A DNA stretch of 21,381 nt from a virus. Taxonomy: Duplodnaviria; Heunggongvirae; Uroviricota; Caudoviricetes. The position numbers were made by a program, and so were the translations under genes. The stretch lies in IMG/VR virus record IMGVR_UViG_2718217709_000001. One strand, given 5' to 3'. Shown here one piece after another: positions 826 to 18,994 of this stretch (position 1 is its first letter; each line of letters opens with the position of its first letter). The notes below the pieces were generated by a model. It made no database searches. It was not told where the DNA came from and saw only the letters and a program-made list of their open reading frames with translations.

Positions 826-868
826 TGCCCACTCCATGTGATATCGATTGCAAAGAAAGTAAATCTGT

Positions 869-1845: not shown

Positions 1846-1957
1846 GTTGGTTCAGTTGGTTCAATTTGTAAAGATCGTTGTTTTTATTGTGTTTTTTCAG
1901 AAATATTGAACCAACATCAACTCATTTTGAACCAACACAGTCCAGCTCTGAACCAAC
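1846..1957. repeat. Iteron/operator-like 9-mer array: GTTGGTTCA x2 in tandem (1846-1863) and TGAACCAAC x3 at exact 21-bp phasing (1907, 1928, 1949)
   Basis: Read directly from sequence; lies in the divergent region between the perC-like gene (-) and the 151-aa gene (+). Confidence 0.6.
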
Positions 1958-4020: not shown

Positions 4021-4077
4021 GAATGAACCGCCCCGGAAATCCTGGAGACTAAACTCCCTGAGAAAGAGGTAAACAGG

Positions 4078-4404
4078 ATGACTAAAAATACTCGTTTTTC
4101 CCCCGAAGTCCGTCAGCGGGCGATTCGTATGGTTCTGGAAAGTCAGGATGAATATGACTCACAGTGGGCGGCAATTTGTTCCATTGCCCCAAAGATTGGC
4201 TGTACGCCGGAGACTCTGCGTGTCTGGGTTCGCCAGCATGAGCGGGATACCGGGGGCGGTGATGGTGGGCTCACCAGCGCGGAACGTCAGCGTCTGAAAG
4301 AGCTGGAACGTGAAAATCGTGAACTGCGCCGCAGTAACGATATCCTTCGCCAGGCTTCCGCTTATTTTGCGAAGGCGGAGTTCGACCGCCTCTGGAAAAA
4401 ATGA
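4078..4404 (+). CDS. IS3-family transposase OrfA (HTH)
   Basis: 108-aa ORF ([22 protein letters not shown]...) recalled as IS629/IS1203-type OrfA; ends at the AAAAAA slippery run. Confidence 0.85.
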
Positions 4405-4818
4405 TGCCACTGCTGGATAAGCTGCGTGAGCAGTACGGGGTCGGACCGGTATGCAGCGAACTGCATATTGCCCCGTCAACGTATTACCATTGTCAGCAAC
4501 AGCGACATCATCCGGATAAACGCAGTGCCCGTGCGCAGCACGACGACTGGCTGAAGAGAGAGATACAGCGCGTATACGATGAAAATCATCAGGTGTACGG
4601 TGTGCGTAAAGTCTGGCGTCAGTTGTTACGGGAAGGAATCAGGGTGGCCAGATGTACAGTGGCACGTCTCATGGCGGTTATGGGACTTGCCGGTGTTCTC
4701 CGGGGTAAAAAGGTCCGTACGACCATCAGCCGGAAAGCCGTTGCCGCAGGCGACCGCGTAAACCGTCAGTTCGTGGCAGAACGACCTGACCAGCTGTGGG
4801 TGGCTGATTTTACTTACG
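4401..4818 (+). CDS. IS3-family transposase OrfB, 5' exon (interrupted by group II intron after ...[10 protein letters not shown])
   Basis: In-frame continuation is found at 7089; the intervening 2270 bp has group II intron boundaries. Confidence 0.75.
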
Positions 4819-5474
4819 GTGTGCCCGGAGTTCAGGGCGGGCATGGATGCTTAAATGAACCGCGAGTCTGTCTGGAATATTGAACCGGTAACTCACGATG
4901 AGAAACCCAACAATCCCACCGGGTGTGACGGTGGAGAACCTGAGCGGCAGTGACCTGCGGCATGCCCGCAGGGTGATGTAACCCGCTGACAACGGGGATT
5001 GAGGCGAGATCACTAAGCCGAGATGATCCTCAAGGTTAAGTACTGAAAGGCTGAAGAACATGAACCCGTTAATCCGCCTCTGTGGGTTGAAAACGTCACC
5101 ACGGCCTACGTGATCTGACAGGCCGTGCAGGAGGAACTGGCAGTAATACGTAAGCACTGCCGGTCGAAGGTGTTTTGACATGTATGCGAAACACCGGGGC
5201 AGCAGCGTCTATCACGCTTGCGTTGCTGACTTCTGCCAACTTGCGGCAAGCAAGGATAAAGAGTGCGACGGGCAGCCTCCTCAGTATGCCTGAGTCCAGG
5301 CAGGTAAACCGGGGAAGGTCAGCGACGGATGTTAAGGGGGCATGGCTCCGATGACGCGCTGGCTGGCGGAGCTTCCGTAGTAGTCCGCGATGGGGAAAGC
5401 CCATTACATGGCGAAGGGAAGCAGTTTGAATGTGTTTGCGACGTGAATTAACTGACCTAACGAGGTGAAGACCT

Positions 5475-6998
5475 TTGATAATCAGCGAAATGCAACGCAA
5501 GCTTGCCACATGGGCAGTCACCGATCCGTCCCTACGGATTCAACGGCTGCTGCGTCTGATAACACAACCAGAATGGCTGGCTGAAGCGGCGCGGATCACG
5601 CTTTCATCAAAGGGGGCCCATACCCCCGGCGTTGATGGCGTGAACAAAACAATGCTACAGGCCAGACTGGCTGTTGAGCTGCAAATCCTCAGGGATGAAT
5701 TACTCTCAGGCCACTACCAGCCCTTGCCCGCCAGACGGGTTTACATCCCTAAAAGCAACGGCAAACTGCGACCACTGGGTATCCCCGCGTTGCGGGATCG
5801 TATTGTTCAGCGGGCCATGCTGATGGCGATGGAGCCGATATGGGAGAGTGATTTTCATACACTCTCATATGGCTTCCGGCCTGAGCGCAGTGTCCACCAC
5901 GCTATCCGCACGGTGAAATTACAGCTCACAGACTGTGGTGAAACCCGGGGACGCTGGGTGATTGAAGGCGACCTGTCCAGTTACTTCGACACCGTACATC
6001 ATCGACTGCTGATGAAGGCTGTACGCCGCAGGATCAGTGACGCACGTTTCATGACTCTGCTGTGGAAAACCATCAAGGCGGGACATATCGATGTCGGTCT
6101 CTTTCGGGCGGCCAGTGAAGGTGTGCCACAGGGCGGTGTTATATCGCCGCTATTATCGAACATCATGCTGAATGAGTTCGATCAATACCTGCATGAGCGC
6201 TACCTGAGCGGGAAAGCCAGAAAAGATCGGTGGTACTGGAATAACAGTATCCAACGGGGCCGAAGTACGGCGGTCAGAGAAAACTGGCAGTGGAAACCCG
6301 CGGTGGCGTACTGCCGCTATGCCGATGATTTTGTCCTCATCGTCAAAGGCACCAAAGCACAGGCGGAAGCCATCAGGGAGGAGTGTCGGGGTGTGCTCGA
6401 AGGCAGTCTGAAACTCAGGCTGAACATGGATAAGACTAAAATCACCCATGTTAATGACGGCTTTATCTTTCTGGGGCACAGGATCATTCGCAAACGCAGT
6501 CGTTATGGCGAGATGCGAGTGGTCTCAACGATCCCGCAGGAGAAAGCCAGAAACTTCGCCGCATCGCTGACAGCACTGTTATCAGGCAACTACAGTGAAA
6601 GCAAAGTCGATATGGCTGAACAACTCAACCGAAAACTGAAAGGCTGGGCCATGTTCTATCAGTTCGTTGATTTTAAGGCCAAAGTCTTCAGTTATATCGA
6701 CCGTGTCGTGTTCTGGAAGCTGGCTCACTGGCTGGCCCGCAAATACCGTACAGGTATCGCTTCCCTGATGAGGTGGTGGTGTAAATCACCGAAACCGGGT
6801 CAGAGCAAAACGTGGGTTTTATTTGGTAAAACCAATCACGGCAAGCTCAGCGGCGAAATACTGTACCGGTTGGTGGGGCAAGGCAAGAAGCTGTTCCGCT
6901 GGCGGCTACCCGAAGGTAATCCCTATCTGAGGACGGAGACCAGAAACACGTATACATCGCGCTTTACAGAAGTGGCAATGGCGTTCGCCAGCATTTAA
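5475..6998 (+). CDS. Group II intron-encoded reverse transcriptase/maturase (no endonuclease domain evident)
   Basis: 507-aa ORF with RT motifs (GIPALRDRIVQRA, YADDFV) and a C-terminal maturase (X) region; no HNH-like Cys/His cluster at the C-terminus. Confidence 0.9.
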   Translation: MIISEMQRKLATWAVTDPSLRIQRLLRLITQPEWLAEAARITLSSKGAHTPGVDGVNKTMLQARLAVELQILRDELLSGHYQPLPARRVYIPKSNGKLRPLGIPALRDRIVQRAMLMAMEPIWESDFHTLSYGFRPERSVHHAIRTVKLQLTDCGETRGRWVIEGDLSSYFDTVHHRLLMKAVRRRISDARFMTLLWKTIKAGHIDVGLFRAASEGVPQGGVISPLLSNIMLNEFDQYLHERYLSGKARKDRWYWNNSIQRGRSTAVRENWQWKPAVAYCRYADDFVLIVKGTKAQAEAIREECRGVLEGSLKLRLNMDKTKITHVNDGFIFLGHRIIRKRSRYGEMRVVSTIPQEKARNFAASLTALLSGNYSESKVDMAEQLNRKLKGWAMFYQFVDFKAKVFSYIDRVVFWKLAHWLARKYRTGIASLMRWWCKSPKPGQSKTWVLFGKTNHGKLSGEILYRLVGQGKKLFRWRLPEGNPYLRTETRNTYTSRFTEVAMAFASI

Positions 6999-7003
6999 AT
7001 GGA

Positions 7004-7037
7004 GAGCCGGATGCGCTGAAAGGTGCACGTCCGGTTC
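7004..7037 (+). ncRNA. Group II intron domain V (catalytic hairpin)
   Basis: GAGCCGGATGCGCTGAAAGGTGCACGTCCGGTTC, about 50 nt before the intron 3' end. Confidence 0.7.
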
Positions 7038-7060
7038 GGGGAGGAGAGGCAGGGAAATAG

Positions 7061-7561
<501 letters not shown>

Positions 7562-7603
7562 GTTCACAGATAAAACACTCTCCAGGAAACCCGGGGCGGT
7601 TCA

Positions 7604-9395
7604 GAATGTGTTTTGCTGCTAGTTCGTATGGAGCTGTTACCCGATTAAATCTGTTTACAAACTCATTCAGCTTACCAGTAGATATTTCATGCGCTTTAGC
7701 ATTTTTTATTGCTCTGGCAACTTTGTATACATCATATAGTCCGCTCATTGTTTCTTTTGGCAAATGTTCAGCCAAAGTCTTTAGCTGTCCACTGTGTTGC
7801 AAGTTTTGCCACCAATCTGCGAAGCCAGATGGATTAAAGTCGGCCCCACGCTTCCCAGAGGAAAGCATATCTCTTAATGCTGTTCCTACTAGCTCCCTTC
7901 GCAATGTTCTTGATGGAGTATTTTGCATAATCTCACGAAACCCTCTCGCATCACCTTTTGCCATAGATTGAAGAGAATTCGTTACTTTATACGCTATATC
8001 CCCATTAAGTGTTTTCCCGCGAAGATTTACCATTTGCCTTTCTAAGTTTTTTCTCATAGCTACAAGGCGTTGTGCGACTTCGAAATCTCGCAAGTATCCA
8101 GTATTGGATAAGACAGATTTTTGGTCTTCAGCTAAAGCTCCATATAGTCTTGATAGCGCTTCTTTATCAGCATCTTTGTATGGCCCCTGCTTTTTATTTA
8201 GGGCATCACCAACTAAACGCCTTTGCCTGTTTAAATTTGCATACGTTAGGATGCTATCTGGGCCGGGGTTTATTGCTGTAAAAACTCGCTTTTCTATTGG
8301 GTCAAGATTATCCCACCCTCCTAAATCATCAGCGATTTTTTCCAGCATAGTGCTTGTGTTATTTGCTTCGACTTTTGTTCTTGGTGATAGAGCGGAATCA
8401 ACACGTTTATATAACTGATCACTACGGTTTTTTAGTGCTTCCATTCTACTATTTATCTGATAAATATATTTTTCGCTCATAGCTAACGCATCTGGCGCAC
8501 CAGCAACATCATCGATTATCTTGCCAGCACTAGAGGCTAATTCGCTTATTGCTTTATCTTCTTGAGCTTTTAACGCTGATCCTGTCCGTGACTTTAGGGC
8601 TTGCTCTACAGCTTGGTATTGCTCATTTCCTGATAAATGAGAAGGAAGAACTGAATCAACATGAAGCCTATTTGCAGCCTCAACAATTTCTTTCTGAGGT
8701 TTTAGATCTAGCCCTTCAAGCGAAGAGGCAAGATTTGGGTTGCCTTGTGCAGATAACTTACGAATTTTCTCTTCGGCAGGAGTAATCCCCTCAATATCTG
8801 GAATCGAAGAAACATTCTTCTTGGTTAATTTCCCAGCTATTTTATTAATTGCAGGGCCAGCAAGTTCGGCTACAGGGCCAGCCACAGCGCCAATAGCAGC
8901 GCCGGAAGCAACATCGCTATTTGTTCCATTGGCTACAATAGCCCCTTCTCCAGCACCAAGCCCTGCGGCGGCAGCCAGTCTTGCCGCCCCTTTGGGAACC
9001 TGAGAAATAATCCCACCACCACTAACAAATGGCGCTGCTTGTCCAACGAACTCACCAACATCTTGTGCGGTTGATGGTTTTGCCGCTAACTTCTGCTGTA
9101 GAGACTGAATTGCGGCTTGCTCTTCTGGTGTCATATCCTGAAACAGGCCAACACCTTTACCAACATCCATCAATCCACTGAGAACGCCATACATAAAACG
9201 GTCGAAACCGTTAGCATTATTAACAACATTTTCCTGTCTGGAATTTTCCTCTGGTGAAACCAAAGGTGATTGCTGCTGTTCTGGTTGGGCATCAAGCACA
9301 AAACCATCAGGAAGCTGTGAACTATCAGGAAACTGTGAGTTATCAGGTTGTTCATCGAGCACAAAACCTTCCGGTAAGATTACATTTGCTGCCAT
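7604..9395 (-). pseudogene. 5' part (597 codons) of the IS-disrupted 705-aa cargo gene: duplicated LPxGFVLDxQP N-terminal motif, Gly/Ala-rich segment, long helical region
   Basis: ORF 7368..9395 (-); residues after codon 597 are read through the IS right end and are not native; AGGA RBS upstream of the ATG at 9395. Confidence 0.7.
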
Positions 9396-10735
9396 TTTCC
9401 GTTCCTGTAAATGATTTTCTGACCAGTTTTAGGGTTGGTTGCCGTTGCGCCTTCTGATATTCCTCCGGTTGCCGCTTTTGCCTGTCCAGTGCCAGCCTGT
9501 GATGTAGGCTGCCCGGAAACATCGTCAAATAGCTTCGCTTTCCTTCTTTCAAGGCTTTTTCTTAGCCCCTGAGGAATAGTTTCTCCATATGTATCGAGAT
9601 ACTCGTCAACCTGCTGGTTAAACTGCTGCCCCATAGCATTGGCGTTGATTTTTGCGGCGTTAACAATGTTATCCTTTGCCTCCTGCGACAGGCCGTTTCC
9701 AGCATTAAGCTGGTCTATGTATCCTTTGATTTGTCCCCATATGCCATCAGACCGCATTACCTGAACCTGTTCGCCTTCACGAACGACTGACTGCGGGTCA
9801 AGAGATTTCATGTAGTTGAAGATAATCCCAAGTTGGGCAGCGCCAGTATTTACCTTGCTAAGGGCTTGCAGAGAGTTTGCCGCCGCTCTGACAGAGTTAT
9901 AATTTTTGCCAAAATTGGTAATGTCAGAATTTAATCCCTTAATTAAGTCTGCTGACGGCTTACCTTTTTGCCCCAGCTCCATTAGCTTCAATCCCATCTC
10001 ATCTGAGTGAATTTGTGCTCGCTGAGCCCTGTCTAGTTGAGCGTTCTGGATATTTGCCCATCCTCTCGCGTTCTCCATGTCAGCCTGACGCATACTTTCA
10101 TCCAGTCGCCCTTGCTCAAGTCGACGACCTTCCATTTGATCTTTGATATCGAAATACTTCTCATGACCGAGAGAAAACAGCGCCAGATTACCTGCGAAAT
10201 GCTGGAAGCCCTGCGGGTCATTAACCTGCATTTCAGCAATAGTTTCTGGAGGGATACCTAAACGACGCATCTCCTGCTCATTATCCATCATGAACCTGCC
10301 AAATGCGCCCTGACCAAGCGATGAGGCTACCTGTGCTTTGAGCGCCAGATTGCCATAATCATCCCTTTGAGCATCATCGACATAACTCATCCCTTTACGG
10401 ACTTCCTCAAACTCTTCTGGGAATGCTGTAATAAGATTACGCATCTGCTCCCTGTCACCGGACGCATAAGCATCTGCATAACCTTTCTGGAATGCCGCTT
10501 TACGTTCCTGCTGTTGCTGCTGCTTATAAATGTCAGCAACTCCAGCCAGACCACGAAGACCTGTCAGAGCAACGTTATTTGCACCTGAGCGAGCCAGTTC
10601 ATTGTTTTCGCGGATCAGACCAAGCGTTGCGTTAATGTCGCTTGCCTTTGGCGCATTCTCATTTTGCGCACCGATGCCAGCCAGAAAACCACCAGAATTA
10701 ATACCCTGTTGCCACGTAGCCATAAATTTACCCAC
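9380..10735 (-). CDS. Hypothetical Gln/Asn/Ala-rich, predicted coiled-coil protein (about 450 aa; likely ATG start at 10723)
   Basis: Long ORF with no Walker or nuclease motif seen; its end overlaps the start of the next gene by 16 nt; the track start at 10735 is GTG, ATG at 10723 follows the upstream stop by 4 nt. Confidence 0.65.
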   Translation of the reverse strand: MGKFMATWQQGINSGGFLAGIGAQNENAPKASDINATLGLIRENNELARSGANNVALTGLRGLAGVADIYKQQQQQERKAAFQKGYADAYASGDREQMRNLITAFPEEFEEVRKGMSYVDDAQRDDYGNLALKAQVASSLGQGAFGRFMMDNEQEMRRLGIPPETIAEMQVNDPQGFQHFAGNLALFSLGHEKYFDIKDQMEGRRLEQGRLDESMRQADMENARGWANIQNAQLDRAQRAQIHSDEMGLKLMELGQKGKPSADLIKGLNSDITNFGKNYNSVRAAANSLQALSKVNTGAAQLGIIFNYMKSLDPQSVVREGEQVQVMRSDGIWGQIKGYIDQLNAGNGLSQEAKDNIVNAAKINANAMGQQFNQQVDEYLDTYGETIPQGLRKSLERRKAKLFDDVSGQPTSQAGTGQAKAATGGISEGATATNPKTGQKIIYRNGKWQQM

Positions 10736-10901
10736 GTCCAGTTAAAGTGTAAGCCAGCGCCTTATCCATTAATCCCCGAGCAATTTCGTGGATCGTTGGC
10801 GCAACTCCTACCTCTGATTTTTTACGCTGCTCCTCCTGAATTTTCTTTATCGCTTCCATTTGCTTCTCACTTATCAATACTGGCTTTACTGAAATAGCCA
10901 T
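10728..10901 (-). CDS. Small ribbon-helix-helix (Arc/CopG-like) protein, 57 aa, first gene of the cargo operon
   Basis: Strong RBS AAGGGGGG 5-6 nt upstream of the ATG at 10901; beta-strand/helix/helix pattern (ISVKPVLISEKQMEAIKK...IHEIARGLMDKAL). The longer 100-aa track ORF would read through a terminator hairpin. Confidence 0.55.
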   Translation of the reverse strand: MAISVKPVLISEKQMEAIKKIQEEQRKKSEVGVAPTIHEIARGLMDKALAYTLTGRG

Positions 10902-10935
10902 AACGCCCCCCTTAGAACTGTATAAAACAACAGTC

Positions 10936-10941
10936 ATTATA
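10936..10941 (-). promoter_or_regulatory. Candidate -10 hexamer TATAAT for the cargo operon
   Basis: Perfect TATAAT on the minus strand about 35 nt upstream of the RHH start; no convincing -35 found. Confidence 0.3.
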
Positions 10942-10997
10942 GTTTCATAAAACGCAACATTCATCATTGTGATTGCAAAATATGAAACAAATAGCAC

Positions 10998-11030
10998 AAA
11001 AAAATGCCACCGTTCAGTAGCTGGTGGCAT
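10998..11030 (-). terminator. Rho-independent terminator-like hairpin (8-bp GC-rich stem, 11-nt loop, U7 tail) downstream of orf245
   Basis: Minus-strand reading ATGCCACC-loop-GGTGGCAT followed by TTTTTTT. Confidence 0.5.
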
Positions 11031-11394
11031 CGTTCTGTATGTCAGGTTTTGACAGTTTTTTTATGGACTCTAAAAACTATATTTATGGAGTCGCATTACT
11101 CTTCACGGCAGGCGCTTTCCAGTTCTGCCCTTGCTTCTGGCTCCATTGGTAATTTGATTCGCGATCAGCTATGCGGATGGTTTGCTGAACAGGCATAACA
11201 ACATCTCAGAGGCTATTTTTTGAACTACGAAAATTTCGTAGTGCTCACCTTCAAAAACGTCACGCCCTTGTACACTGGATTTTACAAAAGTCTCGTAAAA
11301 CTCTTTGCTGTTCTGGGCTATGTGCCAAACCGCAGCGAATACCTCCGTCTGCCAGATGAGCAAAACATACCTTATAAAGAAAATCGCTGTTTTT

Positions 11395-11499
11395 GCTGTA
11401 CCACCTGTACCACCATGTCACAAACCCTTGTGTGGCGCGGCCTGCAGGTGGTACAGGTGGGTAAAAATGACCTCTCCCCACCTGTACAGACCTGTACCA
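11395..11499. repeat. Iteron-like cluster A: five copies of (A)CCTGTAC(C/A) / GGTGGTACAGGTGG in both orientations
   Basis: Direct reading: 11396-11405, 11405-11414, 11447-11460 (inverted), 11480-11489, 11490-11499. Confidence 0.5.
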
Positions 11500-11504
11500 T
11501 TTAT

Positions 11505-12242
11505 TTAATTTTTACCCATAGCAGCACATAATCCCTTTTTTGAAATATTGAAAAATGCGTTCATTCTTCCCGCTGGCTTAACCTTGTAGCCGCTTGCCAC
11601 CATCGCCGCAATAAATGCTCCGTTGGGGATATAGTGCGGGTGATCACTGTGCTGGTGGTTTATCTGGTTATATCGCTCCACTTCATGCTTCAACGTGTCA
11701 GATGTGGGGTTATCCTGCGGGAAGCTCTCAATCTGGGCATTACTCATCCCGTTGTCTCTGATCCATCTCAGGCAGCTTTTCGCCGATACGATAAATGACG
11801 GGTTATCAAGCGGGTTTTCCCAGTCCGCATTCCGGTTGTGGAGCGCCAGTCCGTCAAGGTTAAATTGTGGGTATTCAGCGGTAATTACTGTCACTGCGTG
11901 GCGGATTTCAGTCTCGTCACAACATGGCTCATCTCCCACACCAGCAGGGTAATAATCTGAACCACCGGGACTGATACAGCGTTTACCACTGAAAGGCCAT
12001 TGCTTCGCCATTTCGGGTGTTGAGTGATTACCGTCGCTCCGTTCGCGCTGTGCCTCTGTCCACTGGCTGGCATATTCAGTAAATGAAACTCTTTGCCCCT
12101 GGCGCATCCAGTGCGCAATCATAATTAAAGTGCGTTCCAGACTTTGGATGTCGCCAGCATTCCCGCACTGTGTAGCGAAACTTTTTAATTCTTCGCGCTC
12201 CGTTCTGGTCATTCCCTGCAGTATGCAATAGTTATTGTTCAT
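11505..12242 (-). CDS. Hypothetical protein (245 aa)
   Basis: GAGAGGT RBS 6 nt upstream of the ATG; overlaps the end of orf76 by 11 nt; followed by the terminator at 10998-11030. Confidence 0.6.
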   Translation of the reverse strand: MNNNYCILQGMTRTEREELKSFATQCGNAGDIQSLERTLIMIAHWMRQGQRVSFTEYASQWTEAQRERSDGNHSTPEMAKQWPFSGKRCISPGGSDYYPAGVGDEPCCDETEIRHAVTVITAEYPQFNLDGLALHNRNADWENPLDNPSFIVSAKSCLRWIRDNGMSNAQIESFPQDNPTSDTLKHEVERYNQINHQHSDHPHYIPNGAFIAAMVASGYKVKPAGRMNAFFNISKKGLCAAMGKN

Positions 12243-12462
12243 GTTTTACCTCTCTGATTTCTGCTGCCATATCTGTTGGCTCTATACAGCCGTCCCGACT
12301 TGCCACGCAGGGAATAATGATTTCAACGGTATCGCCGTCAATACACATTTCAACATTCGCCCATGCCGCAATGGGTAGCCAGTCTGAACGCCCCTCAAAC
12401 CGTAGCTGCCAGCCAGAGGAAGAAGCTAACTGGCGCACTTTGTAAAATGGTGTGCTCATCAT
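12232..12462 (-). CDS. Hypothetical small protein (76 aa)
   Basis: GAGAGGG RBS upstream of tandem ATGs; first gene after the primase and iteron cluster B. Confidence 0.5.
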   Translation of the reverse strand: MMSTPFYKVRQLASSSGWQLRFEGRSDWLPIAAWANVEMCIDGDTVEIIIPCVASRDGCIEPTDMAAEIREVKHEQ

Positions 12463-12506
12463 TGGTTGTTCCCTCTCAGCCAGCCAGAAGAAATGCGTTT
12501 GTTAAT

Positions 12507-12609
12507 GGTATAGGTGGTACAGGTCTGGTATAGGTAAGATATTGACCTGTACCACTATAACGCATTGTTTTTAATGCTGAATTAGCAAAGTGGTATAGGT
12601 GGTACAGGT
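12507..12609. repeat. Iteron-like cluster B: GGTATAGGTGGTACAGGT x2 (12507-12524, 12592-12609), GGTATAGGT (12527-12535) and inverted ACCTGTACCAC (12545-12555); candidate origin
   Basis: Direct reading; located immediately 3' of the primase/helicase gene; same core motif as cluster A. Confidence 0.55.
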
Positions 12610-12638
12610 AAAAACGATCTTCTTGTAAAAAGACTATA

Positions 12639-14990
12639 TTAAAAAACATCATAACCCCCCATACCGATCAGACGGGCAAACGCAGCCTGTAGAACTCCGA
12701 CCTCTGGTAGTTCGTAGAACACGCCATTCCCTCGGTCTGGTCTTCCATGCTTCACCAGCCCCATTTGTGCAAGTGATTTACCCAGTAGTGATCTGGCAGC
12801 TGGTTCTTTAAGCTTTTCCCCACGCTCAAGCGACCACGCTACAAATCGACTAACCATATCCTTTGCAAACAAACGGACTTCGCCATTAAACGGAGGTTCA
12901 TTGATTAGCTCGCCATAAAGAAACAATTCAACGCCAGACAGCCCCAGCAAGATTTCTTCACGTAAGGCATCGGTCTGTGGCGCTCGTTGAGGGTCAAAAC
13001 CTGAGAGATCCACCCCTTTAAGATGCCAAAGCAACTTTGCGGCACCGCCATCATTAAGCCAACTGTACAGCCGATCAAAATACTCCCGGCTCTGTGCTTT
13101 TTCAGGAGATGGCTCAAGCACGAGATAGCGGCGCTCTCTTATCCCTGCCTGTAATACCTGTGTGCTGTTACTGGCAAATATCAACCGGGCAAAATTCGGC
13201 ATTGGTTCAGCATCAATTCCCTTGCGCTCAAGGTTAAACGTCGGTTCGCTAATAATCGCTTTAAGTCTGTCAGCTTCAGACGGCTTGTGGATCGTCACTT
13301 CGTCAGCAAATACCAGTAGCTTGTTAGCAAGTATTGAATTGAAGCGCCCTGAAATATGTCCCGCCCCGTTAATGTGGGCGGCGTACTGCCCCAGTATTTG
13401 CAGCAGCGGTTTAACCGTTGTGCCTTTCCCTGTGCCCGGGACAGATTTCATCACGATTGCCACGGACGGTTTTTCATCAGGCTTTTGGATAATGTGCGCC
13501 ATCCACTGGATAAGATATTGGTATGCCTCTTCATTACCGGCACAGACAACCTGCAACAGGTGATTAAGGTATACCGTGCAATCTCCTTCAATTGGTTCCA
13601 GTGCCAGCCCCTCATACAGATTAAAAACATCGTCAGGGCATTTGTCTGGTACTGGATAAAATCCTACGCCTCCTGGCTTGTAGTTCTTCCCACTCCATGA
13701 CAGCCACGCCGATCCCGCCAGCTTTCTGGCGACTCTCGGTTTATGATGAAAATAATGCTGAAATTGTGATAAATCCTCGAAAACGTGCGATACACCGCCG
13801 GTTTGAGAAGGCTTTAGCGACACCACCTTGTGTTTCCCGCCGATGGTGACATGCGTAAACGTCCGGTTGATTTCTTCGAGGACAGCAATTTCATCATCGC
13901 TTAACACCTCGCCAGAACTGATCTCATTCAGCGCCCCGACTGACTGTTTGTGATTTTTCACCTGCGCCCCTTTCCCCCGTGGCTGGTACATCGAATCTTT
14001 AAATGCTGCTGTGGCTGCCGCCAGCCCGTGTTGTTGGTGATAGTCGTTCCAGTCGGCTTTATAGTCAGTCGGTGGCAGAGACACCCAGCCAGCTACGGAA
14101 ATAGCGGCCCTCTCTGCGGCATCTTTCCCCGTGTTGATCCCTCCACTTTCGGAGTTTCCTTGCTGGTGATCGTTATCTGCGGCAATGATGATTTGTGCCT
14201 GTGGATATGTTCTGCGCATGACTTCCGCTACTGGCAACAGGTTGCCAGCGTCGATTGCTGCCACTGTCATTGCGTCAGGGCGAATTAAATGGCACGACAG
14301 GGCGGTAGCCACCCCCTCAGCAATTATGATGCTGTGAGGTCGTTTCTGTGCGTTTATGGCGTGATATGCCCCTCGCTTTGCTGAACCTGTCAGGAGTCTT
14401 TTTTCACCATGTGAGGTAATAGTCTGTGCTGCTGTGACTGCGCCGGATTTATCCACCAGCGCCAGCAACAGAGATCCATCGGGCAACACAGGGAATGTAA
14501 AATCACCTACCCCTTTCGCAACCAGATAATCAGATTTGCCGTTTACAGCCTTTCTGCGCATGTCATCAAACTGACGGGAAAACGTATCCCGTCTTTGTTG
14601 TTCGTCCTTCTCTGCCCTTTTCAGGCGCTCCTGTTCGCGTCGCTGGCGCTCGGTTTCCAGTTGTTCCCGTTTCTGGCTGGTGGCTTCTGGTGTTTCCGTT
14701 GTCCGGTAATCAATACCCAGAACATCAGCGGCAAGAAGCGCCGCCTCTGTTGTGTCGCAGTTATTTACGCGTTTAATTAAATCCAGCCCATCACCAGCGC
14801 CGCACTGATTACAGATGAAGCTACCGCGCCCGTTGTCATCGAACCGGAATCGATCTTTGCCCCCACATGCAGGGCAGGGAGCATGACGGCGCGGAGAGTC
14901 AGGGACATTTATGTTCAGGCAGTCCAGCACATGAGGCCAGTTGTTTTCAGACGCACTGATAACCTGACGGATAAGATCAATGTTTCGCAT
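12639..14990 (-). CDS. P4 alpha-type primase/helicase (N-terminal zinc ribbon, Toprim-like middle, C-terminal P-loop NTPase)
   Basis: 783-aa ORF; CPACGG...CNQCG zinc-binding motif near the N-terminus; Walker A VPGTGKGT in the C-terminal half. Confidence 0.85.
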   Translation of the reverse strand: MRNIDLIRQVISASENNWPHVLDCLNINVPDSPRRHAPCPACGGKDRFRFDDNGRGSFICNQCGAGDGLDLIKRVNNCDTTEAALLAADVLGIDYRTTETPEATSQKREQLETERQRREQERLKRAEKDEQQRRDTFSRQFDDMRRKAVNGKSDYLVAKGVGDFTFPVLPDGSLLLALVDKSGAVTAAQTITSHGEKRLLTGSAKRGAYHAINAQKRPHSIIIAEGVATALSCHLIRPDAMTVAAIDAGNLLPVAEVMRRTYPQAQIIIAADNDHQQGNSESGGINTGKDAAERAAISVAGWVSLPPTDYKADWNDYHQQHGLAAATAAFKDSMYQPRGKGAQVKNHKQSVGALNEISSGEVLSDDEIAVLEEINRTFTHVTIGGKHKVVSLKPSQTGGVSHVFEDLSQFQHYFHHKPRVARKLAGSAWLSWSGKNYKPGGVGFYPVPDKCPDDVFNLYEGLALEPIEGDCTVYLNHLLQVVCAGNEEAYQYLIQWMAHIIQKPDEKPSVAIVMKSVPGTGKGTTVKPLLQILGQYAAHINGAGHISGRFNSILANKLLVFADEVTIHKPSEADRLKAIISEPTFNLERKGIDAEPMPNFARLIFASNSTQVLQAGIRERRYLVLEPSPEKAQSREYFDRLYSWLNDGGAAKLLWHLKGVDLSGFDPQRAPQTDALREEILLGLSGVELFLYGELINEPPFNGEVRLFAKDMVSRFVAWSLERGEKLKEPAARSLLGKSLAQMGLVKHGRPDRGNGVFYELPEVGVLQAAFARLIGMGGYDVF

Positions 14991-15002
14991 TCTGGCCCCC
15001 GT

Positions 15003-15605
15003 TTAGTGCGTCACTGGTGCTTCTGGGATGCCGTTTTCGTTTAGTTCGGCAATAAAGCTGTTGTGAAGATCGGCAAGCACTTCTCGCCCAAACGAAGTGA
15101 GTGTTCCCTGTTCGACATCGAACATGTTGCTGTAAAAAATGATGGCATTCTTTGTTCCGACATCAACACCATATTTCTCGATCATTGCGCCCTCAATGTT
15201 GTTTGCCATAGCGAGGCGCTCTGCTACTGGATACAGCGGCATGGCGACGATGCCATTGGAATAAACAGAAACCACGGAATGATTGCCACTGTCATCAATA
15301 ATGCTGACGGTGCCGTTTTCCTCTCTCATTTCCAGCATGAATACTGTTGCGATCAGCCATCTCCACATAATGACGTTATGCTGTGATGTGTAATCGAAAT
15401 ATCCCTGGTTGCCGCCATCGGCAATAGCGAGATGTATTGACATACCTTCATCTGGTTTATCGTCATAATCCCCGGCATCCAGACGATTTACGGCATCAAT
15501 ATATGAGACGGCCTCAACGCGTTCTGTCATGCCATCGTTGCTGCGGTACATGATGTTTACGCCGCCAGGCGTTGCTTCTGCATGGAAAGTTAAGAAATTA
15601 TTCAT
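15003..15605 (-). CDS. Hypothetical protein (201 aa from MNNFLTFH...)
   Basis: Start chosen 2 nt after the stop of the upstream gene (translational coupling); the longer 235-aa version would overlap that gene. Confidence 0.55.
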   Translation of the reverse strand: MNNFLTFHAEATPGGVNIMYRSNDGMTERVEAVSYIDAVNRLDAGDYDDKPDEGMSIHLAIADGGNQGYFDYTSQHNVIMWRWLIATVFMLEMREENGTVSIIDDSGNHSVVSVYSNGIVAMPLYPVAERLAMANNIEGAMIEKYGVDVGTKNAIIFYSNMFDVEQGTLTSFGREVLADLHNSFIAELNENGIPEAPVTH

Positions 15606-15819
15606 GTTTCGCCTCGCCTGAATGATTCTGTAACTCATATTTGCCCAACAATTCGTCCGCTTCCTGAATAGCTTCTGGTACGCCATTGAGCAGTGACATA
15701 ACCGCGCCAATCATTAACTTGTCTCTGTTGCTTGGGCTGGCCCCTTCAAGCCAGAACCCTAAAACAGTCTGAACCTGTTCGATGCGACATTGCGCTTCAA
15801 TGAGCTGGATGTTGGTCAT
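15598..15819 (-). CDS. Hypothetical small protein (73 aa)
   Basis: Member of a co-directional, overlapping small-gene run upstream of the primase. Confidence 0.45.
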   Translation of the reverse strand: MTNIQLIEAQCRIEQVQTVLGFWLEGASPSNRDKLMIGAVMSLLNGVPEAIQEADELLGKYELQNHSGEAKHE

Positions 15820-16079
15820 TTCGCACTCTCCACATCGATTAAACTGATATCTATCAGGGAGGTAACTTTTTGTAGCCAGCTATTGATTACTGTCGCCTGT
15901 TCCCCTCCCACCGAGGGAATAATCTCATTCATCACATGAACCAGACCTGTGCGCGCTCTGGTAAGCCGTTCAGTCGCGCAATCTGCGGGAGTGAATGTGT
16001 CTGGATATGGCTCTTCGCGCCCCAGCAATGATTCAATTTCCAGCTCACACGGATGACGATAAATTAAGTTGATATTCAT
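15816..16079 (-). CDS. Hypothetical small protein (87 aa)
   Basis: 4-nt start/stop overlaps with both neighbours. Confidence 0.45.
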   Translation of the reverse strand: MNINLIYRHPCELEIESLLGREEPYPDTFTPADCATERLTRARTGLVHVMNEIIPSVGGEQATVINSWLQKVTSLIDISLIDVESAK

Positions 16080-16270
16080 TTTTCACCACCAAGAATTACC
16101 AGCTCTGCACGGGCATCGTTAACCAAAGATGAGCACGCTTTAATCGCATCCACGACATCAGCAGCGTCCATTTCTTCAGCCGAAAGACTGACAGCAACCA
16201 GGACAGCCGCTGCTTGCTCGATTAATTGAAGTGCGGACGTAAGGCGAGGGGTATTAATTGAGTTATTCAT
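16076..16270 (-). CDS. Hypothetical small protein (64 aa)
   Basis: 4-nt overlap with the downstream gene; start overlaps the upstream reading frame. Confidence 0.4.
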   Translation of the reverse strand: MNNSINTPRLTSALQLIEQAAAVLVAVSLSAEEMDAADVVDAIKACSSLVNDARAELVILGGEK

Positions 16271-16481
16271 TGGTTGCCCCCGTTTTTACTGGCATTTCGC
16301 CACCTTCCAGCAGGAAATGAACGTCACGAACGGCGAGATCCAATATCGCGAGTAACGCCTTCAGTCTTTCGTCTCGTGAGGGAGAGTTGCTCACCAGAAT
16401 GTCGTTAATCACTTCTGTCAGTGTGATGATCTGGCTTGTGCGTTCGAGGGGATCCATATGCACATCGTAGGTTTTAATCAT
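16263..16481 (-). CDS. Hypothetical small protein (72 aa, MIKTYDVH...), possibly the independent 3' end of the long open frame
   Basis: ATG overlaps the stop of the 64-aa MLATT gene (ATGATTAA); same frame as the 355-aa ORF. Confidence 0.35.
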   Translation of the reverse strand: MIKTYDVHMDPLERTSQIITLTEVINDILVSNSPSRDERLKALLAILDLAVRDVHFLLEGGEMPVKTGATNE

Positions 16482-17330
16482 GTGCCACCTCCATGCGGAT
16501 ACGACCAGCAAAAAAGCAGACGTGATCGCGCACCAGAGAACGGCGAGCATCGCGTTCAGACTCGGCAGCAATATGATGAATTTTGGCGGTAATTGTCGGG
16601 CAATCGCGGCGAACTGCGGCGATAATCCAGATAAATTGCGTTTTTTGGGTAGGGGTAGTAGCCAGCATGTGGCAGCCTCCTTCAGATAGCAGGTTACGCT
16701 ACCACCGGAAACGCCAATTTCGCTGGTGGTAGCCCAGACAGGGTTGGCGTAACCGGCTCTGAAGGATACCGGCGCTTCCGAAGAAGCCCCCGCCTGAGCC
16801 ACCATTGATTGACAAAGGCGCTGGATTATACACCAACGCCCAAAAAATGGGTGAGTCAGACCTACGACATAAAAAAAGACGCTTGGCGCGTCATATGTCG
16901 CCTTCAGAATTTTTAGGACGCCAATCCCGGCACCCGTTTTATGAGGTGCCTTATAACCATAAACCGTGTTGCCGCATAACGGCAAGCTCTTTTTTATGGA
17001 CTCCGAAAACTCACTATTGGAAGAACCAGAAGCACAGTACATCGCGCTCATTTCGTTAACGTCACGCGCGTGGACGAAGGTTTTTGTGGAGTCACTACAC
17101 GAGCAGAGAAAGCCATCTACGACCAGAAATTCTCTGGCATAGCCGCTGACCTTCTCAACGCTAACACCATCGACCGTAATTTCTGACATAGTTAAGGCAT
17201 CCGCTCCTACCACCAGCAAATGATAAACTTTGCTTGTATCTGCTGTATTAATGTCTGACTTTGCTGTCATATTGCTGGATTTTGGCGACATACCAGCCAG
17301 TGAAAATATCTTCTTCTGGGCGGTTAGCAT
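16263..17330 (-). CDS. Long open frame (355 aa); 5' part looks like a genuine gene, 3' extent doubtful
   Basis: GGAGG RBS and ATG overlapping the upstream stop by 4 nt; the frame stays open to 16263 but overlaps two well-formed small genes with poor codon usage there. Confidence 0.35.
16474..16668 (-). CDS. Hypothetical small protein (64 aa, MLATTPTQ...)
   Basis: Strong RBS AAGGAGG 7 nt upstream; all eight Arg codons are CGC/CGT and Leu mostly CTG, whereas the alternative long frame uses CTA/TTA/AGG/ATA here. Confidence 0.45.
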   Translation of the reverse strand: MLATTPTQKTQFIWIIAAVRRDCPTITAKIHHIAAESERDARRSLVRDHVCFFAGRIRMEVAHD

Positions 17331-17506
17331 TTGTTAACCTCCGCGAACTCCTTCATGAAACGTGCCAGCGGTTGTACGCATGGCGATTGATACCCGTCGC
17401 GATAAAACGTCACTCGGTTGTGAGACACGCTTTCGACAGTAACGAGTGCTCCGTGGGCATCTTTGTAGCGTTTTTGAGGTTGTGGTGTTCCTGTCGGCTT
17501 AAACAT
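17324..17506 (-). CDS. Small prophage-type protein (60 aa), DUF4222-like as recalled
   Basis: ATG 2 nt after the AntA-like stop; the 89-aa track ORF would overlap the upstream gene. Confidence 0.5.
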   Translation of the reverse strand: MFKPTGTPQPQKRYKDAHGALVTVESVSHNRVTFYRDGYQSPCVQPLARFMKEFAEVNKC

Positions 17507-18332
17507 GGACCGCCTCCAGACGCTTGGCGAGCCAGCGTTGCGACAGGCGGGTGAGTTCTCCTTTGCGCTGCTCATATTCCATGCCCATATCAATTAACGT
17601 GATATTGGTGCTTTCGAGATATGAGAGGTGCTCAAGCTGTTCTGCGTTCATATGGTCGCGAGGTTCGCCAGAATAGCCATTTATCCGCGCCCACTGCTTA
17701 GCAGTTAGCCCACCAAGAACGATACGAGAAATCATATTGCTCTCGTTTGTGTAGTGGTGTTGCTGCGTCGTTTTCCCCATCTCGGCACGGGCCATATTCA
17801 GCGCATCGCACATTGGCTTGAAGTTGTTTGCGGCACTGATACGGGCTTTTAGCTGGCGACGATAGCGGGCGGCGATTTCAGGCACGCTACGCTGTAATTC
17901 TTTCTCGCACTGGATGAAATAACGGCGGATAGCGCGACCCTGATCATTGCGTTCGATCATTGCCAGTTCTTTCGCCATTCCGACACTTAACAGATAGTCT
18001 TTGCCGGGTCTGCCAGACTGCTTAATCTTGCTGTAAGCCGCGTCATTCGGGCTTTTCCCCAAATTTGGGGAAATTGTTTTATGGACTGAGTAATCGTGCC
18101 CAATGGTGAAGTCATATTCAGAGATGCGATCAGTGATCCATGTAGAGAAGTCTTTTCCCACGCCCAACGCTTTGTGTAACGCTTTTGCGCTAACAATATT
18201 GGTTTCACGCCCGCCTATATGACCAGAAATAACCGGGACAATTGCGGCAAATTCATTACCGTTAATTGTGCCCAGAGAGGCGTTCAGATGAGGGGCGGCC
18301 TCAGAAATTAATCTGCTTTTTTCGATGTTCAT
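17499..18332 (-). CDS. Phage antirepressor-like protein (AntA-type domain)
   Basis: 277-aa ORF; segment DYLLSVGMAKELAMIERNDQGRAIRRYFIQCEKEL matches the AntA/AntB antirepressor signature as recalled; GGAG RBS upstream. Confidence 0.6.
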   Translation of the reverse strand: MNIEKSRLISEAAPHLNASLGTINGNEFAAIVPVISGHIGGRETNIVSAKALHKALGVGKDFSTWITDRISEYDFTIGHDYSVHKTISPNLGKSPNDAAYSKIKQSGRPGKDYLLSVGMAKELAMIERNDQGRAIRRYFIQCEKELQRSVPEIAARYRRQLKARISAANNFKPMCDALNMARAEMGKTTQQHHYTNESNMISRIVLGGLTAKQWARINGYSGEPRDHMNAEQLEHLSYLESTNITLIDMGMEYEQRKGELTRLSQRWLAKRLEAVHV

Positions 18333-18344
18333 TTTTAGTCTCCG

Positions 18345-18776
18345 TTAGGCGGCGTTAAACGCGTCCGGGTAGAGTTTCAGAATGTCGGCAATTTCCTGCT
18401 GAGAAAGTCCGTTGTGATCATTTATGTTCGCAAGATGGTTAACATGAGTGATCACTTTCAGAACATCACCACGGCAGGAGAAACGGTAGCGAAGGTGTGT
18501 TCCGATACCATCAGGATTCTTTTCGTCGATACGCTCCAGAGTGATTCCAAGCTGGCGTTCTAACTCTGTTGCATAGTTACGACCAGAAGACAGACGGCAG
18601 TAGCGAAGAATGTCATTTTCTGTCCATCCCTCTATACCAGTACGCAGCATATAGACTCGGGCACGATGCTTTTTCGGTGTGCGCTTTGGTGCTTGAAGGG
18701 ATTTTGTAAGGGGCGTAATATCAGATACGCGAATATCTGAATTAGCCGCCTGTAATGGGCGGTTTTTCTTTTCCAT
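18345..18776 (-). CDS. Hypothetical protein (143 aa), translationally coupled to alpA
   Basis: Start overlaps the alpA stop by 1 nt; basic N-terminus. Confidence 0.55.
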   Translation of the reverse strand: MEKKNRPLQAANSDIRVSDITPLTKSLQAPKRTPKKHRARVYMLRTGIEGWTENDILRYCRLSSGRNYATELERQLGITLERIDEKNPDGIGTHLRYRFSCRGDVLKVITHVNHLANINDHNGLSQQEIADILKLYPDAFNAA

Positions 18777-18994
18777 CAGGCCACCTTCCCGCGGCGTTCT
18801 GCCAGCCAGTTATTAATTTCCACCGCATCAAACGCAGTCACGTTATCTGTTAGCTTCACTGGGCGTGGAAGAGTGCCATTTTTAACCCATCTATCAATAG
18901 TAGGCAGTGAAACACCTAGCAATTCCGGCATGCGAAAGCGACGGATGTATCCAGTTGTTGGGATAGCTGATGATGCTGGCTTGTGTACTGTCAT
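18776..18994 (-). CDS. alpA: AlpA-family (MerR-like HTH) prophage transcriptional regulator
   Basis: 72-aa ORF; HTH segment LPELLGVSLPTIDRWVKNGTLPRPVKL typical of AlpA-type regulators of P4-like elements; position downstream of int. Confidence 0.7.
   Translation of the reverse strand: MTVHKPASSAIPTTGYIRRFRMPELLGVSLPTIDRWVKNGTLPRPVKLTDNVTAFDAVEINNWLAERRGKVA

What the first reader, a model, noticed from the sequence alone, without database searches (positions are those of the whole stretch)
11395..12609. Two clusters of GGTGGTACAGGT-type iterons flanking orf76/orf245, immediately 3' of the primase/helicase: candidate replication origin plus second cis site
Seen: cluster B (12507-12609) has two 18-bp GGTATAGGTGGTACAGGT copies plus partial and inverted copies; cluster A (11395-11499) has five copies of the same core in both orientations, about 1.1 kb away. 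Established: phage P4 and PICI-type satellites place iteron origins bound by their primase/Rep near the replication gene, and P4 has a second iteron site (crr). Inference: these are ori and crr-like sites for the 783-aa primase/helicase. Alternatively they are operators co-regulating the orf76/245 and cargo operons.
Basis: partly seen in the sequence, partly recalled or inferred. Interest (0 to 1): 0.55.

Follow-up and report, generated by a model that had tools for sequence, protein, structure and literature searches.

The report
Replication origin of an E. coli phage satellite
The two clusters of short GGTAYAGGT repeats are real and are most likely the two-part replication origin recognised by the neighbouring primase-helicase of an E. 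coli phage-satellite island, which is a new example of a known design rather than a new kind of element.

Summary
Eleven copies of a 9-bp unit (GGTAYAGGT) lie in two ~100-bp clusters, 12507-12609 and 11395-11499. Only scattered one-mismatch matches to the unit occur elsewhere in the window, and the cluster B array occurs only in E. coli genomes that carry this island.

In the 35 related loci inspected, from E. coli to Methylobacter, a short-repeat (iteron) array starts just after the stop codon of the homologous primase-helicase, or after its terminator. Most loci share a two-module layout:
- Module 1 is two repeats, an AT-rich spacer, one inverted repeat, then three repeats.
- Module 2 is inverted repeats around a spacer of about 36 bp.

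Cluster B is module 1 and cluster A is module 2. The modules are adjacent in many relatives. They are split by orf76 alone in Xenorhabdus, and by orf76+orf245 here.

The repeat sequence changes when the helicase/C-terminal half of the protein changes. Sister islands share the backbone and the primase half, but have a DUF927 or D5-type helicase half. They carry GTTGGTTCA or TATCCCTAC repeats instead.

The swapped cassette here (11305-13968) contains both clusters, and the cargo beyond it varies. The island belongs to the EcCIMP1 family of phage-inducible chromosomal islands (PICI).

The kind of element is known (a PICI origin; P4 crr by analogy), and this is a new member. Binding and replication remain untested.

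The parts
12639..14990 (-). 783-aa primase-helicase: Zn-ribbon, Toprim primase and DUF5906 (superfamily 3, D5-like) helicase, followed by a C-terminal domain
   Evidence: Pfam hits Zn_Ribbon_Prim, Toprim_3 and DUF5906. PHROG DNA primase families. Residues 7-337 are 33% identical to P4 alpha; the rest is unrelated.
12642..13028 (-). C-terminal 129 residues, predicted winged-helix domain. This is the inferred iteron-binding domain.
12592..12609 (-). Module 1, gene-proximal tandem pair of 9-bp iterons (ACCTGTACC ACCTATACC on the gene strand)
   Evidence: The same pair sits at +32/+41 after the stop codon in L003, L032, L036, L037 and L038.
12555..12591 (.). Module 1 spacer, 37 bp and 70% A+T. Candidate DNA-unwinding region.
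   Evidence: Composition. An AT-rich spacer of similar length occupies this position in the enterobacterial and Xenorhabdus relatives; in some distant ones (e.g. L017) it is not AT-rich.
12545..12554 (+). Module 1, single iteron inverted relative to the others
   Evidence: Conserved at +85 in relatives.
12507..12535 (-). Module 1, distal group of three iterons
   Evidence: Conserved at +106/+117/+126 in relatives. Iteron columns are 94% identical across six loci, against 74% for the other intergenic columns.
12232..12462 (-). orf76, a small gene of unknown function lying between the two origin modules
   Evidence: Homologues (MMSTPF...) follow module 1 in Xenorhabdus, Pantoea, Buttiauxella, Salmonella and Enterobacter loci. 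No hit in Pfam, PHROGs, NCBIfam, PADLOC or PDB.
11505..12242 (-). orf245, a gene of unknown function lying between the two origin modules
   Evidence: Present with orf76 in L032, L036, L037 and L038; in L003 the window 11536-14939 aligns, which covers orf245. Absent in Xenorhabdus and in all loci where the modules are adjacent. No family or structure hit.
11480..11499 (-). Module 2, first pair of iterons (one exact, one with a mismatch)
   Evidence: Same position in L003, L032, L036 and L037.
11449..11458 (+). Module 2, single iteron facing the terminal pair
11413..11448 (.). Module 2 core: a 36-bp gap between inward-facing iterons. It is GC-rich here and contains GGCCGCGCCACACAAGGG on the gene strand.
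   Evidence: The gap is 35-38 bp in most relatives, whether GC-rich or AT-rich (Xenorhabdus, L034, L035). Part of the sequence is shared with L027, which has different iterons. No consistent hairpin.
11395..11412 (-). Module 2, terminal tandem pair of iterons (TGGTACAGG TGGTACAGC on the gene strand)
   Evidence: Conserved in relatives and followed by an A/T tract.
11360..11394 (.). A/T-rich tract (71% A+T) after module 2, containing the conserved AAAA..GCGATTTTC
11305..13968 (-). Exchangeable replication cassette: the helicase plus winged-helix half of the primase gene (from about residue 341), cluster B, orf76, orf245 and cluster A
   Evidence: Flanks 10125-11304 and 13969-18966 are 94-98% identical to the DUF927-type sister islands L025/L026. 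The segment between them is replaced there. The same holds against EcCIMP1.
1846..1957 (.). Non-cognate origin-like site: five exact GTTGGTTCA iterons (two tandem, an AT-rich spacer, three inverted) directly upstream of perC
   Evidence: This is the iteron of DUF927-type sister islands. Those islands carry it both 3' of their primase and upstream of perC.

Best explanation
The two clusters are the two modules of the replication origin of this island. The island is an EcCIMP1-family phage-inducible chromosomal island.

Proposed mechanism:
- The 9-bp GGTAYAGGT units are binding sites for the 783-aa primase-helicase encoded immediately upstream. Binding is most likely through its C-terminal winged-helix domain.
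- Bound protein would nucleate assembly of the superfamily 3 helicase, open the DNA and prime synthesis with its own Toprim primase domain. This is how P4 alpha and PICI Pri-Rep proteins act.
- Cluster B (module 1) has iterons on both sides of a 70% A+T spacer. It is present in nearly every relative and is the core origin.
- Cluster A (module 2) has inward-facing iterons around a fixed gap of about 36 bp. It is an accessory second site of the same origin. It is adjacent to module 1 in many relatives and is separated from it here by orf76 and orf245.

Shown: the repeats, their position, their conservation, and their co-variation with the helicase/C-terminal half of the protein.

Inferred: binding by this protein, which domain binds, where melting occurs, and whether module 2 is required.
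For: 1. The repeats are far above chance and confined to the two clusters. The array is confined to genomes carrying this island.
2. In all 22 loci found through the protein (34-76% identity, from Buttiauxella to Methylobacter, Alishewanella and Endozoicomonas), iterons begin within a few to about 200 bp of the stop codon.
3. The same is true in seven further loci.
4. Module 1 sits at nearly identical offsets (+32, +41 / -85 / +106, +117, +126) in E. coli, Salmonella, Enterobacter and Buttiauxella.
5. Iteron columns are better conserved than the rest of the intergenic region, 0.94 against 0.74.
6. Specificity co-varies with the protein. The iteron is CTGTACCA in relatives at 49% identity or more (Arsenophonus has the variant GTACAGGT). 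It is CTAACCCA at 44%, CACTACCA at 42%, CGCCAACC at 43% and CTGTTCCA at 34%.
7. There is a natural swap experiment. Islands with the same backbone have a primase half about 77-86% identical in protein, but a DUF927 or D5_N/Pox_D5 helicase half. They have GTTGGTTCA or TATCCCTAC iterons. The D5 type keeps the same two-module layout.
8. Both clusters lie inside the swapped cassette. They stay with the gene when the cargo changes.
9. The C-terminal domain is predicted to be a winged helix.
10. A 7.6-kb Vibrio plasmid, whose only annotated replication-type gene encodes a protein 34% identical to the helicase/winged-helix half, has 9-bp iterons in both orientations around A/T-rich DNA right after that gene.
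11. Published precedent: E. coli PICI origins lie immediately 3' of pri-rep, with two iteron sets flanking an AT-rich region. The EcCICFT073 pri-rep-ori segment replicates a plasmid (PMC6092414).
12. P4 crr lies immediately 3' of alpha.
Against: - There is no experimental evidence for binding, melting or replication of this variant.
- The swap exchanges the helicase and the winged helix together, so the binding domain is not resolved.
- The recognition-helix motif AAR is kept in L034, and nearly kept (SAR) in L035, although their iterons differ.
- Module 2 is missing in Enterobacter L038 and Pantoea L008, so it may be dispensable.
- Cluster B lies directly upstream of orf76, and cluster A lies upstream of the cargo. 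A regulatory role in addition to the origin role is therefore not excluded.
- A naive exact 7-mer repeat statistic puts the locus-wide maximum just 3' of the gene in only 18 of 32 loci.
Confidence: 0.75

Rival explanations
1. The repeats are transcriptional operators. Cluster B would control orf76-orf245 and cluster A the downstream cargo operon. The bound protein would be the primase-helicase or another regulator, and the sites would have no role in initiation.
For: Cluster B lies 45 bp upstream of the orf76 start codon, and cluster A lies at the head of the cargo region. In sister islands a second iteron cluster abuts the perC start next to a TATAAT-like hexamer. Many plasmid initiators repress their own promoters through repeats (general knowledge).
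Against: - The same arrays follow the primase gene in loci that lack orf76/orf245, where the two modules are adjacent.
- Module 2 is kept when the cargo is entirely different: SSB, ProQ, PerC, Q.
- No sigma-70-like promoter was found in either cluster.
- The layout matches the published PICI origin design.
Confidence: 0.1
2. The repeats bind a different protein, such as the product of orf76 or orf245 or a partition or packaging factor. They would then be a centromere-like or packaging site rather than an origin.
For: orf76 and orf245 lie between the clusters and have no known function. Inverted short repeats also occur at partition and packaging sites (general knowledge).
Against: - CTGTACCA arrays occur in many loci without orf76 or orf245. 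The primase-helicase is the only protein known to be common to all the loci, since they were found through it.
- The iteron type switches exactly with the helicase half in islands that are otherwise 94% identical.
- No ParA/ParB-like or terminase gene was detected among the larger window ORFs scanned.
Confidence: 0.07
3. The two clusters are terminal inverted repeats of a small mobile cassette carrying orf76-orf245, or are decaying relics with no present function.
For: The clusters are inverted relative to each other: 24-nt arms at 11390-11413 and 12590-12613 are 88% complementary (I1). They bracket exactly two genes whose presence varies between relatives.
Against: - Each cluster has the internal architecture of a module that exists without any insertion in other loci.
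- Neither ORF resembles a transposase or recombinase.
- The repeats are better conserved than their surroundings.
- The array is nearly invariant in 129 E. coli genomes.
Confidence: 0.03

Closest known systems
Replication origins of Gram-negative phage-inducible chromosomal islands (EcCICFT073 type; Fillol-Salom et al. 2018, PMC6092414)
   Same: - The island has int, an AlpA-like regulator and a fused primase-helicase, all transcribed in one direction.
- The origin lies immediately 3' of the replication gene.
- Two sets of short iterons flank an AT-rich stretch.
- Different Pri-Rep alleles have different iterons.
   Different: - The helicase half is a DUF5906 type.
- There is a second module with a fixed gap of about 36 bp, and it is separated from the first by two genes.
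- I could not find this iteron sequence in the searchable literature.
- Replication has not been tested for this variant.
EcCIMP1, the PICI of E. coli MP1 mobilised by the P22-like phage Kapi1 (Pick et al. 2025, PMC11773190)
   Same: - Same island backbone: integrase, AlpA-like HTH, AntA and DUF4222.
- A disrupted Ash gene in EcCIMP1.
- Related PerC and ejection-protein genes.
- 88-95% nucleotide identity over the window 13969-18786.
   Different: - EcCIMP1 has a DUF927 helicase half and GTTGGTTCA iterons.
- It carries these both 3' of the primase and upstream of perC, 8.5 kb apart.
- The paper does not describe an origin or iterons.
- The window's cassette 11305-13968 is absent from EcCIMP1.
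Satellite phage P4 alpha protein with ori and crr
   Same: - One multifunctional primase-helicase with origin recognition.
- Short iterons in both orientations.
- One iteron site (crr) directly 3' of the gene and a second site elsewhere.
- The N-terminal primase domains are homologous, 33% identity.
   Different: - The helicase and C-terminal halves are unrelated in sequence.
- The P4 iteron TGTTCACC is absent.
- There are no 120-bp direct repeats.
- The second site is 1.1 kb downstream rather than 4.5 kb upstream.
- No P4 sid, delta or psu genes were detected among the larger ORFs scanned.
Origins of superfamily 3 helicase initiators of eukaryotic DNA viruses (SV40 large T antigen, papillomavirus E1); from general knowledge, not tested here
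   Same: A superfamily 3 helicase carries its own DNA-binding domain. Short recognition sites are arranged as inverted groups next to an A/T-rich tract, consistent with head-to-head assembly.
   Different: There is no sequence relationship. The binding domain has a different fold class. This is only a mechanistic analogy for the inward-facing sites of module 2.

Membership tests
Gram-negative PICI replication origin | Lies immediately 3' of the pri-rep (primase-helicase) gene | tested here: met
   Cluster B begins 30 bp after the stop codon at 12639-12641.
Gram-negative PICI replication origin | [quoted passage not shown] | tested here: met
   Iterons at 12592-12609 and 12507-12554 flank a 37-bp spacer of 70% A+T. 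The definition is from PMC6092414.
Gram-negative PICI replication origin | The Pri-Rep plus ori segment drives autonomous replication, and loss of ori or Pri-Rep abolishes it | not testable with these tools
   Needs a plasmid replication assay. Indirect support only: a 7.6-kb Vibrio plasmid has a related protein and the same layout.
Gram-negative PICI (the island as a whole) | int, an alpA-type regulator and pri-rep transcribed in one direction, with helper-phage-dependent induction and transfer | tested here: inconclusive
   The gene order is met. Induction has been shown only for the sister island EcCIMP1, which has a different replication cassette.
P4 ori/crr system | P4 alpha-family protein over its whole length, including the C-terminal origin-binding domain | tested here: not met
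   Only residues 7-337 align with P4 alpha. There is no sequence match to a solved P4 alpha domain. The NCBIfam P4-family primase C-terminal model scores 20 bits against a cut-off of 109.
P4 ori/crr system | Type 1 iteron TGTTCACC | tested here: not met
   Zero matches in the window.
P4 ori/crr system | crr made of two 120-bp direct repeats directly 3' of the gene, plus a separate ori kilobases away | tested here: not met
   The position 3' of the gene is shared, but there is no long direct repeat. The second cluster is 1.1 kb downstream.
Iteron plasmids of the RepA/pi/TrfA type | Direct repeats of about 17-22 bp, DnaA boxes, and an initiator without helicase activity | tested here: not met
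   The units are 9 bp and occur in both orientations. There is no DnaA box or IHF consensus in 11300-12700. The adjacent protein is a primase-helicase.

The most novel reading that the evidence does not exclude
The origin may be genuinely bipartite. Module 2, with inward-facing sites at a fixed gap of about 36 bp, would be the place where two helicase rings load head to head. Module 1 would act as an enhancer that works at a variable distance (0, 0.3 or 1.1 kb). This tolerance would allow genes such as orf76 and orf245 to settle inside an origin.

Satellites of this family also exchange helicase-plus-origin cassettes as units. The GTTGGTTCA site left upstream of perC (1846-1957) may still be used by a co-resident DUF927-type island, either to replicate this island or to control perC. 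That would link the replication of different satellites in one cell.
Probability: 0.15. Interest if true: 0.6.

Novelty: new member of a known kind. Interest (0 to 1): 0.4.

Why it matters
It gives a concrete, testable origin and specificity code for a replicon found in about 130 of 5426 complete E. coli genomes and in many other Gammaproteobacteria.

It shows that satellites of the EcCIMP1 family differ mainly by exchangeable cassettes made of a helicase half plus its origin. At least three iteron types sit on one backbone. This is relevant to incompatibility and competition between satellites sharing a cell.

It also offers a simple annotation rule: look for a 9-bp iteron array right after a primase-helicase gene. 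It does not change the current understanding of how such elements replicate.

Tried and rejected
- **Hairpin in the module 2 core.** I folded ten cores as single-stranded DNA. The z-scores ran from -1.95 to +1.0 with no shared structure. Rejected.
- **Known RNA family.** The Rfam scan of 10700-12900 gave only chance-level hits.
- **Host initiator sites.** There is no DnaA box or IHF consensus in 11300-12700.
- **Promoter in the clusters.** The consensus scan found none. The only promoter-like site lies inside orf76.
- **P4 homology of the origin.** The P4 iteron is absent. The P4 alpha C-terminal domain was not matched by sequence or by fold.
- **Mobile cassette with terminal inverted repeats.** Rejected, because each cluster is a complete module that exists elsewhere without an insertion.
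- **Function of orf76 and orf245.** There was nothing in Pfam, NCBIfam, PADLOC or PDB, and only a marginal PHROG hit of unknown function for orf245.
- **Recognition-helix co-variation.** The AAR motif and the GRxxRG wing are altered in the two loci with the most divergent iterons (L019, L022). L034 keeps AAR and L035 nearly keeps it (SAR), yet their iterons also differ. No specificity residues can be named.
- **Unbiased repeat statistic.** With exact 7-mers, the region 3' of the gene is the locus maximum in only 18 of 32 loci. Degenerate iterons weaken this test.
- **Literature.** No paper holds TGGTACAGG together with 'iteron'. Nothing links DUF5906 with an origin.
- **Divergence within E. 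coli.** It was too low to footprint, at 97.7% identity or more, so I used other genera.

Full report
**Observation**

The region holds eleven copies of a 9-bp unit, GGTAYAGGT.

- Cluster B (12507-12609) has two exact 19-mers TGGTATAGGTGGTACAGGT, each made of two units in 9-bp register. It also has a third GGTATAGGT and one inverted GGTACAGGT.
- Cluster A (11395-11499) has five units in both orientations: three exact, one with a single mismatch and one degenerate.
- With one mismatch allowed, there are 14 hits in the window against 2.6 expected. Ten of the 14 lie in the two clusters.
- GGTAYAGG occurs nine times in the window, all inside the clusters. It does not occur in 63 kb of other E. coli island DNA.
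- In 2000 simulated sequences, no more than two hits fell within 120 bp. Six are observed.

**Context**

- The window is an E. coli chromosomal island. The region of the finding (11300-12700) is 100% identical to ETEC H10407 and about 20 other genomes.
- On the minus strand the gene order is:
  1. integrase
  2. AlpA-like HTH regulator
  3. AntA
  4. DUF4222
  5. Ash
  6. several small genes
  7. the 783-aa primase-helicase (Zn-ribbon, Toprim, DUF5906)
  8. cluster B
  9. orf76
  10. orf245
  11. cluster A
  12. P22-type ejection-protein genes
  13. perC further on
- The backbone is that of EcCIMP1, a phage-inducible chromosomal island shown to be mobilised by the P22-like phage Kapi1 (PMC11773190).

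**Comparative test**

- I collected relatives of the primase-helicase and fetched 22 loci from other species at 34-76% identity. I added loci for seven further homologues and a plasmid.
- In every locus, a cluster of short repeats in both orientations begins just after the stop codon, or after a terminator that follows it.
- Most loci share one architecture:
  - Module 1 is two tandem units, an AT-rich spacer of about 37 bp, one inverted unit, then three units.
  - Module 2 is one or two inverted units, a single unit, a gap of about 36 bp, two inverted units, then an A/T tract.
- Cluster B is module 1. Its offsets (+32, +41 / -85 / +106, +117, +126) are the same in E. coli, Salmonella, Enterobacter and Buttiauxella.
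- Cluster A is module 2.
- The distance between the two modules varies:
  - They are adjacent in Buttiauxella L010/L011/L016, Methylobacter, Methylomonas, Citrobacter L033, E. coli L034 and L027.
  - They are separated by an orf76 homologue alone in Xenorhabdus.
  - They are separated by orf76 plus orf245 in the window, L003, L032, L036 and L037.
- Module 2 is missing in L038 and L008, and four distant loci keep only a minimal inverted pair of sites. Module 1 is therefore the near-universal part and module 2 is accessory.
- Within module 1, iteron columns are 94% conserved, against 74% for the other intergenic columns.

**Co-variation with the protein**

- Relatives at 49% identity or more use CTGTACCA (Arsenophonus has a GTACAGGT variant). 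More distant relatives use CTAACCCA, CACTACCA, CGCCAACC or CTGTTCCA, mostly in the same layout.
- The strongest evidence is a natural swap.
  - Islands L025, L026, L029 and EcCIMP1 are 94% identical to the window on both sides.
  - Their primase halves are about 85% identical in protein.
  - Their helicase half is DUF927, and their iterons are GTTGGTTCA.
  - Islands L027/L028 have a D5_N/Pox_D5 half and TATCCCTAC iterons in the full two-module layout.
- The replaced segment in the window is 11305-13968. It runs from about residue 341 of the primase-helicase to 90 bp beyond cluster A.
- Both clusters therefore travel with the helicase half. The genes beyond cluster A differ between relatives: ejection proteins here, and SSB, ProQ, PerC or Q elsewhere.
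It also argues against binding by orf76 or orf245 products, since many loci with the same iterons lack those genes.

**The protein**

- Residues 7-337 are 33% identical to the primase part of P4 alpha. The rest is unrelated to it.
- A winged-helix iteron reader is thus plausible but not proven.
- I could not name specificity residues.

**Mechanism, with its status**

- Shown: the repeat arrays, their position, their conserved architecture and spacing, and their co-variation with the helicase half.
- Inferred from PICI and P4 precedent (PMC6092414; P4 annotation): the protein binds the units, assembles its superfamily 3 helicase, melts DNA and primes.
- The 70% A+T spacer of module 1 is the obvious melting candidate.
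- The fixed 36-bp gap between the inward-facing sites of module 2 would fit head-to-head loading. It keeps its length whether GC-rich or AT-rich. This is speculation.
- There is no DnaA box or IHF consensus, which fits a self-contained initiator.
- A 7.6-kb Vibrio plasmid, whose only annotated replication-type gene encodes a related protein, has the same layout right after that gene. This supports the view that the gene plus the array is a complete replicon.

**Comparison with known systems**

- It works like a Gram-negative PICI origin and meets the sequence-level criteria of that class. The functional criterion cannot be tested here.
- It resembles P4 crr in position only. The defining P4 features are not met: the alpha C-terminal half, the TGTTCACC iteron and the 120-bp repeats.
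- It is not a RepA-type iteron origin.
- I found no description of this iteron or of an origin in the EcCIMP1 family.

**Verdict**

- It is a new member of a known kind, with three points of moderate interest:
  - a conserved two-module design that tolerates genes between the modules;
  - cassette exchange of the helicase half together with its origin;
  - a non-cognate GTTGGTTCA origin-like site left upstream of perC at 1846-1957.
- The confidence that the clusters are the cognate origin is about 0.75. The requirement for cluster A is less certain.

Noticed in passing
window 1846-1957: A second, different origin-like array lies directly upstream of perC (1522-1809, minus strand). It has five exact GTTGGTTCA units: two tandem, an AT-rich spacer, then three inverted. 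No cognate DUF927 primase is present in the window. Sister islands with that primase (L029, EcCIMP1 L030) carry this array twice, 3' of the primase and upstream of perC, 6.6-8.5 kb apart and mutually inverted. Of the 567 E. coli genomes that have it, the median is two places per genome.
   Followed up: yes
window 4078-7300: An IS3-family transposase (HTH_Tnp_1, HTH_21) is interrupted by a group II intron reverse transcriptase/maturase (5475-6998). This coincides with a GC-rich block at 4000-7500. The ETEC H10407 copy of the island is annotated differently over this stretch, so the insertion appears to be absent there; no alignment of this part was made.
   Followed up: partly
window 7368-10735: The satellite carries P22-type ejection/DNA-transfer protein genes: Inj_translocase at 9380-10735, and a 675-aa PHROG DNA-transfer protein at 7368-9395. 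The related island EcCIMP1 is mobilised by a P22-like helper. This suggests that the satellite supplies its own ejection proteins.
   Followed up: partly
window 10676-12492: The motif TTCTNCTGGCTGGC occurs five times against 0.6 expected. All five lie within or next to the replication cassette. One lies between cluster B and the orf76 ribosome-binding site (12479-12492). CTGGCTGGC, often extended to CTTCTTTYCTGGCTGGC, recurs in both orientations near the origin in islands with other iteron types. Some copies are coding, and the function is unknown.
   Followed up: partly
window 11413-11448; L027 6655-6700: The module 2 core contains a non-iteron sequence, GCCGCGCCACA..GGGTTT. It is shared with islands that use different iterons (L027) and is related to GCTACAGGCCGCGCC in distant loci. 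CGCGCCA is present in 9 of 16 origin regions. It forms no consistent hairpin and is replaced by AT-rich DNA of the same length in Xenorhabdus, L034 and L035.
   Followed up: partly
window 13969 (about residue 341 of the primase-helicase): The recombination junction of the cassette exchange falls in the linker between the Toprim primase and the helicase. One primase half (about 74-86% identical in protein) is found fused to DUF5906, DUF927 or D5_N/Pox_D5 helicase halves in E. coli and Klebsiella.
   Followed up: yes
L004 3686-3800; L014 470-580: In Xenorhabdus ehlersii and one Methylobacter contig, a complete module 1 lies 4.6-6.8 kb upstream of the primase stop codon. The copy after the gene is shortened. 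This may be a rearrangement or a P4-like distant site. No second primase gene is present in either locus.
   Followed up: partly
L038 6380-6520; L008 downstream of 7407: Enterobacter L038 keeps module 1, orf76 and orf245 but has no module 2. Pantoea L008, whose match to the primase covers only residues 307-783, also lacks module 2.
   Followed up: partly
window 1-837: A Bro-N domain protein (278 aa) lies on the minus strand at the left edge of the window, beyond perC.
   Followed up: no
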